From: a virus
Lineage: Duplodnaviria > Heunggongvirae > Uroviricota > Caudoviricetes
DNA length: 10,266 nucleotides
Virus record (IMG/VR): IMGVR_UViG_3300028991_000027
Location: 1-10,266 of that record
Reading direction: 5' to 3' (one strand)
This document shows, piece after piece, positions 497 to 4,924 of this stretch. The notes below the pieces were generated by a model. The model saw only the letters and a list, made by a program, of their open reading frames with translations. It did not search any database and was not told where the DNA came from. Made by a program: the position numbers and the translations under genes. Positions within the stretch are counted from its first letter, which is position 1; each line of letters starts with the position of its first letter.

Positions 497-646
497 AGAT
501 CAATAAGCACTTCTCTGATAGGCTCATACCGCTTTTGCGCAAAGCAGATGGGCCTGAGGTTTGCTTGTGACCCCAACGCATGAGCAGATGGCTGGCAGGT
601 GCCGCTAACACCCACCAGCCGCCCATTACCACAAATAAAAAAGCCT

Positions 647-3645: not shown

Positions 3646-3990
3646 CTATAATAATTTCAGAGTTTTTACATCCAGTTCAACACTGTTCAGGTCTTTATCA
3701 AGTTCCCCCTCAATTATTACCTTGTCTTTCGGAGAAACATTCTGCCCGGCCCATACACTTTTATCGATATCCGTGACAATGGTTCCGCTACTGTCGCGAA
3801 ACTCATAACGATCATCACCCAATTTTTTAACGATGTGCCCTTCAAGGATAACCCATGCCTCGTCCTTCTGTTCTTTTGCCTGCACTACTGTTGTTGAACG
3901 CTCTGCTTCAGACCCCAGAAAACCTCCCTGTTGTGCAAAAACGCCAAAAGACACGCAGGAAAAAAGGGCTGCGATTAATACTTTTTTCAT
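3646..3990 (-). CDS. YgiW/YdeI-family (BOF) OB-fold periplasmic protein with signal peptide (114 aa)
   Basis: Start taken at ATG 3990 (MKKVLIAALFSCVSFGVFAQQGGF...), preceded by GAGGA; the ORF-track N-terminal extension is not supported. QGGF, DDRYEFRDSSGTIVTDID and GELDKDLNSVELDVK match the YgiW/YdeI pattern as recalled. Flanked by its own terminator. Confidence 0.8.
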   Translation of the reverse strand: MKKVLIAALFSCVSFGVFAQQGGFLGSEAERSTTVVQAKEQKDEAWVILEGHIVKKLGDDRYEFRDSSGTIVTDIDKSVWAGQNVSPKDKVIIEGELDKDLNSVELDVKTLKLL

Positions 3991-4078
3991 TATCGTCCTC
4001 TTCAAGAAATTAACATGAACACTTGCATTGCAGCATATAAAATGCGGGTGCGTTGAGGATGCCTGACACATCAGAGGT

Positions 4079-4100
4079 GGCGAGGGATTTCTCCCTCGCC
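4079..4100 (-). terminator. stable GC hairpin at the 3' end of the hok transcript
   Basis: GGCGAGGGA-tttc-TCCCTCGCC, 8 nt past the hok stop codon. No clean U-tract on the minus strand, so it may be a 3' stabilising or fold-back element rather than an intrinsic terminator. Confidence 0.35.
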
Positions 4101-4107
4101 TGGTCTC

Positions 4108-4263
4108 TTACTTCTCAGATTCGTAGTCTACGAAGACAGCGACCTCCGTCTGGCCGGTTCGGATTCGTACCTCGCAGAGGTCTTTCCTCGTTACCAGTGC
4201 CGTCACTATGACGGTTAAACAGATGACGATCAGGGCGATTAACATCGCCTTTTGCTGCTTCAT
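4108..4263 (-). CDS. hok: Hok/Gef-family type I toxin (51 aa membrane peptide)
   Basis: Translated by hand from the minus strand: MKQQKAMLIALIVICLTVIVTALVTRKDLCEVRIRTGQTEVAVFVDYESEK. It is shorter than the ORF-track cutoff. Hydrophobic N-terminus and the TRKDLCEV...GQTEVA core match the Hok family. Confidence 0.9.
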   Translation of the reverse strand: MKQQKAMLIALIVICLTVIVTALVTRKDLCEVRIRTGQTEVAVFVDYESEK

Positions 4264-4321
4264 AGTCTGCTTCTCCTTGACCTTTCGGTCCGTAAGAGGC
4301 TAACCTACGTTTGTGAAGCAT
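4115..4321 (-). CDS. mok: mok-like overlapping reading frame (68 aa) upstream of and overlapping hok
   Basis: ORF 4115..4321 begins with ATG 58 nt upstream of hok and overlaps it in another frame, as mok does in hok/sok loci. The protein itself is low-complexity; the call is positional. Confidence 0.4.
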   Translation of the reverse strand: MLHKRRLASYGPKGQGEADYEAAKGDVNRPDRHLFNRHSDGTGNEERPLRGTNPNRPDGGRCLRRLRI

Positions 4322-4380
4322 AGATTGGGCCTCAGATTAATGTTAAGCGTCTTGCAGGACGCGTAATGTTAACTGGGGCT
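4290..4380 (+). ncRNA. sok: possible sok-like antisense RNA region (position inferred, boundaries not defined)
   Basis: In hok/sok loci the antisense RNA overlaps the mok start on the opposite strand. Here I find only a weak plus-strand promoter candidate (TTGACC 4277-4282, poor -10) and a small hairpin GCGTC-ttgcag-GACGC at 4347-4362. It may be degenerate. Confidence 0.2.
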
Positions 4381-4439
4381 TTTCTCTGTCTGCCTTACGG
4401 CGGCATGCCCGAGGCAGACAGCCTCAGGCACCCGCAGCA

Positions 4440-4467
4440 ATTCTACTTTACTCTCGTTTTACTGCAA
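4440..4467 (-). promoter_or_regulatory. putative sigma70 promoter for hok/mok mRNA
   Basis: Minus strand: TTGCAG (plus 4462-4467), 16-nt spacer, TAGAAT (plus 4440-4445). This gives a leader of roughly 110 nt before the mok-like ATG. Confidence 0.45.
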
Positions 4468-4571
4468 ACCTTTTATCCCGGGCGCATATTACCCGATATG
4501 GGAACTCACACATCGAAATGAATTCGCTTCCATTGCCCCCTCAATCACATAACCAGACACATAAAATGTAC

Positions 4572-4601
4572 TTGCCATCTGAAGAGACAATAATCTAAAC
4601 T
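4572..4601 (+). promoter_or_regulatory. putative promoter for the plus-strand DUF1640-like gene
   Basis: TTGCCA (4572-4577), 18-nt spacer, TAAACT (4596-4601), followed by SD AAGGA (4623-4627) 9 nt before the ATG at 4637. Confidence 0.3.
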
Positions 4602-4636
4602 CAGAAGATCCCTCAATAGCATAAGGAATTGATATT

Positions 4637-4924
4637 ATGGGTCACGTCTATTTTGACACATTAAAATTTGCCGAAGCACTGGAAAAAGCTGGCATGCCAG
4701 CTGAACAGGCGCGCGCCATTTCCTCCGCAATAAAAGATGCCCATGAGGCAATTGAAGTTGCAACTAAAAATGACCTTCACTACGCAAGCTCAGAACTTAA
4801 GCGCGATATTCTGTCAATTAATGAGAAAATTGACCACCTCATATTTCAAGTAACTTTTCGGTTAGGGGTAATAATTTCTATATGTATAGTAGTTGTATTT
4901 GCCATAATTAAAATGAATATGTAA
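4637..4924 (+). CDS. small coiled-coil protein with C-terminal transmembrane helix (DUF1640-like, 95 aa)
   Basis: Complete ORF with a good SD. Protein MGHVYFDTLKFAEALEKAGMPAEQARAISSAIKDAHEA... ends in the hydrophobic LGVIISICIVVVFAIIKM. Opposite strand to all neighbours, with its own terminator. Family name is from memory. Confidence 0.65.
   Translation: MGHVYFDTLKFAEALEKAGMPAEQARAISSAIKDAHEAIEVATKNDLHYASSELKRDILSINEKIDHLIFQVTFRLGVIISICIVVVFAIIKMNM

What the first reader, a model, noticed from the sequence alone, without database searches (positions are those of the whole stretch)
4079..4467. Intact hok/mok type I toxin locus in the prophage
The 51-aa Hok peptide is intact with the family core motif, and a mok-like overlapping frame and a well-formed promoter (TTGCAG-16-TAGAAT) are present. 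I could not find a convincing sok promoter on the opposite strand, so the locus may be unregulated, or regulated only through mRNA folding and processing. In a prophage such a toxin could mediate abortive infection or prophage stabilisation.
Basis: partly seen in the sequence, partly recalled or inferred. Interest (0 to 1): 0.5.

Follow-up and report, generated by a model that had tools for sequence, protein, structure and literature searches.

The report
Complete hok/mok/sok toxin-antitoxin locus

Summary
The 51-aa Hok ORF (4108-4263, minus strand), the overlapping mok frame (4115-4321) and the promoter (TTGCAG-16-TAGAAT, 4440-4467) are all real. The peptide is 51/51 identical to HokW of phage 933W/Sp5, which has been shown experimentally to be toxic.

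A Sok gene lies on the plus strand:
- -35 TTGACC at 4277-4282, an 18-nt spacer, and -10 TAACCT at 4301-4306.
- RNA at about 4313-4383: a 5' tail, a long hairpin and a U-run.
- It lines up with the annotated sokW and sokC, and carries the same -10 hexamer whose mutation abolished sokW antitoxin activity.

Folding 4433->4040 gives the 5'/3' closure typical of hok mRNAs. Folding 4433->4076 does not.

So this is a complete, canonical hok/mok/sok module of the hokW/hokD lineage, in the nin region of a prophage of E. coli UTAK-6. It is already known.

One point is of modest interest. Leader position 7 (window 4427) is C where all relatives have U. It corresponds to R1 T6, where every substitution abolished toxicity. 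Folding predicts that the processed mRNA stays closed (P(open) 0.001, against 0.94 after back-mutation).

The parts
4440..4467 (-). hok promoter: -35 TTGCAG (4462-4467), 16-nt spacer, -10 TAGAAT (4440-4445)
   Evidence: The -10 TAGAAT is invariant in 933W hokW, O26 hokD and the leader found upstream of a restriction-modification (R-M) operon in other genomes. The transcription start is inferred at G4433/G4432 from the Rfam alignment with R1.
4040..4433 (-). Full-length hok mRNA (inferred). The 5' end is placed by homology. The 3' end is approximate because no canonical intrinsic terminator was found.
   Evidence: Fold: MFE -163.5 kcal/mol, z = -7.7, 0 of 100 shuffles as good, with nt 1-12 paired to nt 376-388. 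Homology with 933W and O26 hokD fades a few bases after the fbi.
4422..4433 (-). tac element GGGUGCCUGAGG. Position 7 (window 4427) is C, where relatives have U.
   Evidence: (the NC line marks the non-canonical pair). This position corresponds to R1 U6 in the structural alignment.
4405..4415 (-). Partner of tac in the 5' metastable hairpin (GCCUCGGGCAU)
   Evidence: The hairpin of nt 1-33 is -24.0 kcal/mol with C7 and -21.2 with U7.
4373..4383 (-). ucb / anti-SD (AAAAGCCCCAG). It pairs with the mok SD in the closed form and with tac in the open form.
   Evidence: Folds; Rfam consensus structure.
4329..4335 (-). mok Shine-Dalgarno region CUGAGGC
   Evidence: It is sequestered by ucb in the full-length fold (mean P 0.74).
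4115..4321 (-). mok reading frame, 68 codons. It starts 58 nt upstream of the hok ATG and is out of frame with hok.
   Evidence: The 58-nt offset equals that of the classic R1/R100 sequence. 933W, O26 hokD, the IncY plasmid, K-12 hokC and the R1-like plasmid L005 have 57 nt, which is in frame.
4277..4306 (+). Sok promoter: -35 TTGACC (4277-4282), 18-nt spacer, -10 TAACCT (4301-4306)
   Evidence: Alignment with 933W (TTGCCT-17-TAACCT), O26 hokD and R1-like (TTGCGC-17-TATCCT). The -10 is identical to the one mutated in the sokW promoter-less construct.
4313..4383 (+). Sok antisense RNA (inferred, about 71 nt): a 5' single-stranded tail complementary to the mok start region, a long hairpin, and GGGGCUUUU
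   Evidence: Coordinates transferred from the annotated sokW (L004 1597-1667) and sokC through alignments A1 and A2. Fold: -33.6 kcal/mol, z = -5.8.
4296..4304 (-). dcb (GUUAGCCUC). It pairs with the mok SD in the open form and overlaps the Sok -10 on the other strand.
   Evidence: Open-form folds; SD-dcb mean P 0.64 in the U7 back-mutant.
4108..4263 (-). hok CDS, 51 aa, with SD AAGGAG at 4273-4278
   Evidence: Annotated WP_000813258.1, 'Hok/Gef family protein'.
4079..4100 (-). 3' stem-loop GGCGAGGGA-GAAA-UCCCUCGCC, the presumed protective end of the processed mRNA
   Evidence: An A-U to G-C compensatory change relative to 933W is visible in alignment A2.
4044..4058 (-). fbi element CCUCAACGCACCC(GC), which pairs with tac
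   Evidence: P(G5-C384) = 0.98. The same pairing is predicted in 933W, O26 hokD, the IncY plasmid and the R1-like plasmid.

Best explanation
The locus is a complete hok/mok/sok type I toxin-antitoxin module of the hokW/hokD lineage. It sits in the nin region of a lambdoid prophage and points the same way as the early rightward genes.

Shown by sequence and comparison:
- A hok promoter.
- A leader with tac, ucb and the mok SD.
- A mok frame that overlaps hok.
- A Hok peptide identical to HokW.
- A 3' protective hairpin and an fbi element.
- On the opposite strand, a Sok gene with its promoter inside the 5' part of mok.

Inferred mechanism, taken from the R1 and hokW paradigms:
1. The full-length hok mRNA is closed by tac-fbi pairing, with the mok SD held by ucb, so it is neither translated nor bound by Sok.
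2. Slow 3' trimming removes the fbi, and the leader should then refold into tac-ucb and SD-dcb.
3. Sok, which is short-lived and made from its own promoter, pairs with the mok start region. The duplex is cleaved and mok-coupled hok translation is blocked.
4. If Sok synthesis stops (prophage induction, transcription shut-off, loss of the element), Hok is made and damages the inner membrane.

Caveat: the U-to-C change at leader position 7 is predicted to disfavour the refolding step, so this allele may be attenuated.
For: - Pfam HOK_GEF E=4.3e-23.
- Rfam RF01794 103.9 bits.
- 51/51 identity to HokW.
- 92-93% nucleotide identity to the hokW loci of 933W and VT2-Sakai, which carry annotated mokW/hokW/sokW features.
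- The Sok promoter and RNA are co-linear with sokW and sokC, with the same -10 TAACCT.
- That -10 has been mutationally validated, and HokW toxicity and sokW antitoxicity have been shown (PMC8621323).
- The Sok hairpin plus U-run folds with z = -5.8.
- The full-length fold shows 11 bp of tac-fbi pairing, P = 0.98, and an overall z of -7.7.
- The same closure is predicted in four relatives, including the R1-like plasmid, whose tac and fbi sequences both differ: GGCGC/GCGCC against GGGUGC/GCACCC.
- The mok offset of 58 nt is as in R1/R100.
- The mechanism elements are as described for R1 (PMC9841398).
Against: - There are no expression data for this strain. Both transcription starts and the Sok 3' end are transferred by homology.
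- No canonical intrinsic terminator was found after the fbi, so the full-length 3' end is undefined.
- The Sok promoter has an 18-nt spacer and a 3/6 match at the -10.
- C at leader position 7 creates a C·A mismatch in the tac-ucb stem and strengthens the competing 5' hairpin. The switch step may therefore not operate in this allele.
Confidence: 0.88

Rival explanations
1. The locus is structurally complete but post-transcriptionally locked or attenuated. [quoted passage not shown] Little or no Hok would then be made even when Sok is lost. The locus would be a silenced passenger rather than an active killer. This is a refinement of the best explanation, not an exclusive alternative.
For: - The structural alignment maps window nt 7 to R1 U6, which pairs with A70.
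- In R1, every substitution of G4, C5 or T6, and also A70T, abolished toxicity. T6C was checked by Northern blot (PMC9841398).
- All relatives and the Rfam consensus have U there, and ucb carries no compensating change.
- For the processed mRNA, ViennaRNA gives P(tac-ucb) = 0.001 as the sequence stands and 0.94 after a C7U back-mutation. The open state costs +5.25 against +0.14 kcal/mol.
- The same calculation puts the known R1 loss-of-function mutants at P <= 0.007, against 0.03-0.22 for wild type. Natural U7 relatives lie at 0.03-0.98.
- Among 5,426 complete E. coli genomes, C7 within an intact hok leader context occurs only in the source strain. U7 occurs at 1,496 places in 772 genomes.
Against: - This is a thermodynamic prediction only. 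The model gives functional 933W hokW a P(open) of just 0.03-0.18, so no threshold for function is calibrated.
- The hokW-type tac-ucb stem is longer than R1's and may tolerate one mismatch.
- The processed 3' end is assumed.
- Kinetic folding and ribosome-assisted opening are not modelled.
Confidence: 0.4
2. One reading: hok has no sok gene, so it is unregulated or controlled only by mRNA folding and processing.
For: The Sok promoter matches the sigma-70 consensus at only 8/12 and is not reported by the consensus scan.
Against: - The promoter, the 5' tail, the hairpin and the U-run are all present, in register with the annotated sokW and sokC.
- The identical -10 hexamer is required for sokW antitoxin activity (PMC8621323).
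Confidence: 0.03
3. A decaying remnant or pseudogene of a hok locus, like several K-12 chromosomal hok copies.
For: - Many chromosomal hok loci are reported to be inactivated by IS elements or rearrangements (PMC12214031).
- This allele carries unusual changes: C7 and a 1-nt insertion that shifts mok out of frame.
Against: - All cis elements and both ORFs are intact, and no IS is present.
- The 1-nt insertion comes with changes on both sides of a hairpin (GACC-GAAA-GGUC, as in hokC). It gives the 58-nt mok offset of R1/R100, with an open 68-codon frame.
Confidence: 0.05

Closest known systems
hokW-mokW-sokW of Stx2 phages 933W and Sp5 (VT2-Sakai)
   Same: - The Hok peptide is 51/51 identical.
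- The leader and CDS are 92.4% identical over 434 nt.
- The hok -10, the Sok -10 (TAACCT) with its flanking sequence, the Sok hairpin and the fbi are the same.
- The same BOF/YgiW-like gene lies immediately downstream.
- This locus has been shown experimentally to be a type I TA system whose toxin is made on prophage induction (PMC8621323).
   Different: - Here the cassette lies in the nin region between the replication genes and Q, co-oriented with the early genes. In 933W it lies near the right end of the genome.
- The mok offset is 58 nt (out of frame) here and 57 nt (in frame) in 933W.
- tac position 7 is C here and U there.
- The Sok -35 and spacer are TTGACC/18 here and TTGCCT/17 there.
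- The Sok 5' recognition tail differs at five positions.
- The first leader hairpin is of the hokD type.
hokD (relF) loci of lambdoid prophages (for example E. coli O26:H11 11368; Qin in K-12)
   Same: - 91% nucleotide identity over 99% of the 481-nt query, and 92% amino-acid identity.
- The same nin-region neighbourhood, upstream of DUF968 and Q.
- An identical first leader hairpin.
   Different: - The Hok C-terminus is FVDYESEK here and FTAYEPEE in HokD.
- The downstream neighbour here is the BOF gene, not a RelE/HTH pair.
- C7 and the mok frame differ as described for hokW.
hok/sok (parB) of plasmids R1 and R100
   Same: - The same overall architecture and order of elements.
- A full-length Rfam leader match.
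- tac-fbi closure.
- The Sok promoter is in the same place (TTGCGC-17-TATCCT).
- The mok start lies 58 nt upstream of hok, out of frame.
   Different: - HokW is 44% identical to R1 Hok (PMC8621323).
- R1 has a separate terminator hairpin after the fbi; none is seen here.
- R1 is on a plasmid and acts in post-segregational killing.
- The window carries the equivalent of the R1 loss-of-function change T6C.
hokC (gef)/mokC/sokC of E. coli K-12
   Same: - 80% amino-acid identity.
- The same GACC-GNAA-GGUC hairpin upstream of the hok SD, and the same Sok -35, TTGACC.
- sokC is annotated at the homologous position.
   Different: - The K-12 copy has IS186 immediately downstream, so it has no homologous fbi.
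- It lacks the 18-nt extension of the ucb/Sok hairpin.
- Its mok is in frame with hok.

Membership tests
[quoted passage not shown] | Hydrophobic Hok/Gef peptide of about 50 aa | tested here: met
   Pfam PF01848 at E=4.3e-23, covering 42/42 model positions. 100% identical to HokW, 92% to HokD and 80% to HokC.
[quoted passage not shown] | An upstream mok reading frame with its own SD that overlaps the hok start, allowing translational coupling | tested here: met
   mok at 4115-4321(-), 68 codons, with GAGG 8 nt upstream. The 58-nt offset is as in R1/R100. Coupling itself was not tested.
[quoted passage not shown] | A cis-encoded antisense Sok RNA gene: promoter inside the 5' part of mok, a 5' tail complementary to the mok translation initiation region, and a terminator hairpin | tested here: met
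   The promoter at 4277-4306(+) and the RNA at 4313-4383(+) are co-linear with the annotated sokW and sokC. The hairpin has z = -5.8. The -10 is identical to the validated sokW -10. Expression cannot be tested here.
[quoted passage not shown] | Long-range tac-fbi pairing of the 5' and 3' ends of the full-length mRNA | tested here: met
   In both the MFE and the centroid structures, nt 1-6 and 8-12 pair with nt 376-388; P = 0.98. The pairing is also predicted in four relatives, including the R1-like plasmid with different tac and fbi sequences.
[quoted passage not shown] | The mok SD is sequestered by ucb in the closed form | tested here: met
   Mean SD-ucb pair probability is 0.74 in the full-length mRNA. 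The structure appears.
[quoted passage not shown] | After 3' processing, the leader refolds into the open form (tac-ucb stem, SD-dcb stem) | tested here: inconclusive
   P(tac-ucb) is 0.001 for the sequence as it stands and 0.94 after a C7U back-mutation. The window falls in the range of the known R1 loss-of-function mutants. This is a prediction only, and the model is not calibrated on functional loci.
[quoted passage not shown] | A stable 3' stem-loop that protects the processed mRNA | tested here: met
   A 9-bp GC-rich stem with a GAAA loop at 4079-4100. A compensatory A-U to G-C change relative to 933W is visible.
[quoted passage not shown] | The leader matches the curated covariance model (Rfam RF01794) | tested here: met
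   103.9 bits against a gathering score of 59, covering all 157 of 157 model positions. The model is in the hok-sense orientation: the K-12 hit is antisense to the annotated sokC.
[quoted passage not shown] | Hok is toxic, Sok neutralises it, and the duplex is cleaved by RNase III | not testable with these tools
   These were shown for the identical HokW peptide and for sokW in Sp5, with partial dependence on RNase III and Hfq (PMC8621323). They have not been shown for this allele.

The most novel reading that the evidence does not exclude
This allele is a natural 'locked' hok. A single tac substitution (U7C, the counterpart of the engineered R1 T6C loss-of-function mutation) traps the processed mRNA in the closed fold, while the Hok ORF, mok and Sok all stay intact. 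If so, counting intact hok ORFs overstates the number of active toxins, and single leader substitutions are one way prophage hok loci are disarmed.
Probability: 0.4. Interest if true: 0.3.

Novelty: already known. Interest (0 to 1): 0.15.

Why it matters
It matters little as a discovery. hok/sok loci are catalogued in most Enterobacteriaceae genomes and are reported to be enriched in prophages (bioRxiv 10.1101/2025.08.07.668861). This toxin is identical to the characterised HokW.

Two practical lessons follow.
1. Sok promoters are poor consensus matches (here 8/12), so they are missed both by eye and by simple scans. Calling a hok locus 'unregulated' needs comparison with annotated sok genes.
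2. The state of a hok locus cannot be read from the ORF alone. One leader base at 4427 may decide whether the toxin can ever be translated.

Tried and rejected
1. The fbi lies further downstream; extending the transcript to 4040 gives the closure.
2. The consensus terminator scan of 3900-4700 found none, so the full-length 3' end stays undefined. The Sok hairpin is missed by that scan.
3. The Rfam 'sok' hit on the minus strand is not the antisense RNA. The model RF01794 describes the hok-sense leader.
4. I asked whether C7 is a common natural variant. It occurs in 59 of 5,426 genomes, but the other 58 carry a CTCAGG-type leader. All three of those that I opened show the hok leader fused to a methyltransferase/restriction operon, with no hok.
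5. I looked for an fbi downstream of that restriction-modification operon and found none.
6. The Tyr47 codon sits in CUACGAA, which I recall as the tRNA-Arg(ACG) anticodon-loop sequence, and hokC, hokD and hokE are reported to be edited at this residue (PMC12214031). However, the local minimum-energy fold puts UACG in a stem rather than a 7-nt loop, so I make no claim.
7. In one search the SD-ucb and SD-dcb columns used the wrong GAGGC (the one inside tac) and should be ignored. Only P(tac-ucb) from that call is used; the SD figures come.
8. I did not run the large protein or structure searches, because the identity was settled without them.

Full report
**Source and context.** The 481 bases around the finding are 100% identical to one record, the E. 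coli UTAK-6 chromosome. About 4,700 of 5,426 complete E. coli genomes hold related sequence, usually annotated hokD or Hok/Gef. In UTAK-6 the locus lies in a lambdoid prophage. The gene order is a cI-like repressor, cro, replication genes, DUF1627, DUF977, DUF4406, an ead-like gene, then hok, a YgiW/BOF-family gene, DUF968, RusA and Q. All of these from cro onwards run in the same direction as hok. The locus is therefore in the nin region. An O26 prophage carries hokD at the equivalent place.

**The observation.** The ORF at 4108-4263(-) encodes a 51-aa peptide. It matches Pfam HOK_GEF over the whole model at E=4.3e-23. The overlapping frame at 4115-4321(-) has 68 codons and is preceded by GAGG. 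The promoter TTGCAG-16-TAGAAT lies at 4440-4467, and its -10 is invariant among relatives. Rfam RF01794 matches 4261-4433(-) at 103.9 bits, against a gathering score of 59. That model is named 'sok' but is oriented in the hok sense: the K-12 hit at L003 502-654(-) is antisense to the annotated sokC at 553-611(+). The hit is therefore evidence for the hok leader, not for the antisense RNA.

**Identity.** The peptide is 51/51 identical to HokW of phage 933W, 92% identical to HokD and 80% to HokC. The DNA is 92.4% identical to the hokW loci of 933W and VT2-Sakai. In 933W, mokW, hokW and sokW are all annotated. Takada et al. showed that HokW is toxic, that sokW neutralises it, and that HokW is produced on mitomycin C induction and increases Sp5 release about two-fold (PMC8621323).

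**Sok is present.** I transferred the annotated sokW (L004 1597-1667, with its 5' end 8 nt inside mokW) and sokC through the alignments. This places Sok at about 4313-4383(+) in the window.
- Upstream lie TTGACC (4277-4282), 18 nt, and TAACCT (4301-4306).
- The corresponding promoters are TTGCCT-17-TAACCT in 933W and O26 hokD, and TTGCGC-17-TATCCT in an R1-like plasmid.
- The mutagenic primers YO-421/422 of Takada et al. change TAACCTA to GAGCCGG to make the 'promoter-less' sokW, which lost its antitoxin activity. The window has exactly that -10 and its flanking sequence.
- The predicted RNA has a free 5' tail, a long hairpin and GGGGCUUUU. It folds at -33.6 kcal/mol, with z = -5.8.
- The promoter scores only 8/12 against the consensus.

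**mRNA folding.** With 4433->4040, both the MFE and the centroid structures pair nt 1-6 and 8-12 (GGGUGC, UGAGG) with CCUCA..GCACCC at 4046-4058. The MFE is -163.5 kcal/mol, z = -7.7, and P(pair) = 0.98. The same closure is predicted for 933W, O26 hokD, an IncY phage-plasmid copy and an R1-like plasmid. In the R1-like plasmid both partners differ in sequence: GGCGC/GCGCC. In the closed form the mok SD pairs with ucb. The stem-loop at 4079-4100 corresponds to the protective 3' end of the processed RNA and shows a compensatory change relative to 933W. These elements match the R1 scheme summarised in PMC9841398.

**How this allele differs.**
- *A 1-nt insertion.* It lies in the hairpin upstream of the hok SD and comes with changes on both sides of that hairpin (GACC-GAAA-GGUC, as in hokC). 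It puts the mok start 58 nt upstream of hok, out of frame. The classic R1/R100 sequence also has 58 nt: an 88-nt stretch I recalled from memory was found at >=99% identity in 2,691 plasmid records, including 100% identity in NC_002134. The five compared loci (933W, O26 hokD, the IncY plasmid, K-12 hokC and the R1-like plasmid L005) have 57 nt, so their 'mok' is an in-frame extension of hok.
- *The Sok 5' tail.* It is the most variable stretch among relatives.
- *Leader position 7 (window 4427).* It is C, whereas all relatives and the Rfam consensus have U.

**Position 7 in detail.** The covariance-model alignment equates this base with R1 U6, which pairs with A70 in the tac-ucb stem. In R1, every substitution of G4, C5 or T6, and also A70T, abolished toxicity (PMC9841398). 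The window's ucb carries no compensating change.
- For the processed RNA, ViennaRNA gives P(tac-ucb) = 0.001 and P(5' hairpin) = 0.99 for the sequence as it stands. After back-mutation to U these become 0.94 and 0.05. The open state costs +5.25 against +0.14 kcal/mol.
- As a control, the same calculation puts R1 T6C, G4A, C5U and A70U at P <= 0.007, against 0.03-0.22 for wild type. Natural U7 relatives lie at 0.03-0.98.
- The model is not calibrated: functional 933W hokW gets only 0.03-0.18. This is therefore a prediction, which I rate at about 0.4.
- Exact-word searches find the C variant in 59 of 5,426 genomes. Only the source strain has it together with the intact hok-type context. The U variant occurs at 1,496 places in 772 genomes.

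**Verdict.** This is a complete, canonical and already-known hok/mok/sok module. The only non-routine point is the possible natural locking mutation in tac.

Noticed in passing
L010 2360-2600 (-) (E. coli strain 9000, NZ_CP018252.2); also L007-L009: In 58 other complete E. coli genomes a C7-type hok leader is present. In the three I opened, the hok promoter and leader (tac with C7, first hairpin, ucb, Sok-terminator hairpin, mok SD) are fused just after the mok SD to a short uORF. The uORF overlaps the start of a DNA cytosine methyltransferase gene. In strain 9000, the one locus read further downstream, an NgoMIV-family restriction endonuclease follows. The fusion sits in the same nin-region slot. 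It has no hok and no Sok promoter, and in strain 9000 no fbi was found. A toxin-mRNA leader appears to have been re-used as the 5' UTR of a restriction-modification operon.
   Followed up: partly
window 4239-4266 (+): A second promoter-like site on the antisense strand, TTAACA-16-CATAGT (9/12), scores better than the true Sok promoter. The critical final T of the -10 exists only in this allele; relatives have CATAGC. It could give a longer antisense RNA covering the hok SD and start codon.
   Followed up: no
window 3646-3990 (-): A BOF/YgiW-family OB-fold gene (Pfam BOF, 5.6e-31) lies directly downstream of hok. Its product has a hydrophobic N-terminus that looks like a signal peptide (not tested). 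The same hok-plus-BOF pair is found in phage 933W and in an IncY phage-plasmid, so the two genes seem to travel as one cassette. No terminator is seen between them.
   Followed up: partly
window 4313-4329 (+): The 5' single-stranded tail of Sok (the complement of the mok start region) is the most variable stretch of the locus among close relatives. This fits a role in keeping co-resident hok/sok loci from cross-reacting. The source genome has 6 hok-like places.
   Followed up: no
window 4115-4131 (-): The Tyr47 codon lies in CUACGAA, which I recall as the anticodon-loop sequence of tRNA-Arg(ACG). HokC, HokD and HokE are reported to be A-to-I edited at this residue (Tyr to Cys; PMC12214031). 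The local minimum-energy fold places UACG in a stem, so whether this allele can be edited is unclear.
   Followed up: partly
window 4261-4433 (-); L003 502-654 (-): Rfam RF01794, named 'sok antitoxin', matches the hok-sense strand: the hok mRNA leader from +1 to the hok AUG. It is antisense to the annotated sokC. A hit therefore does not show by itself that a Sok gene exists.
   Followed up: yes
window 4637-4924 (+): A 95-aa ORF lies on the opposite strand just upstream of hok. It has a weak, sub-threshold similarity to Pfam CCDC90-like (26 bits against a cut-off of 33.5) and a hydrophobic C-terminus. It is annotated as hypothetical and is oriented against the early operon.
   Followed up: no
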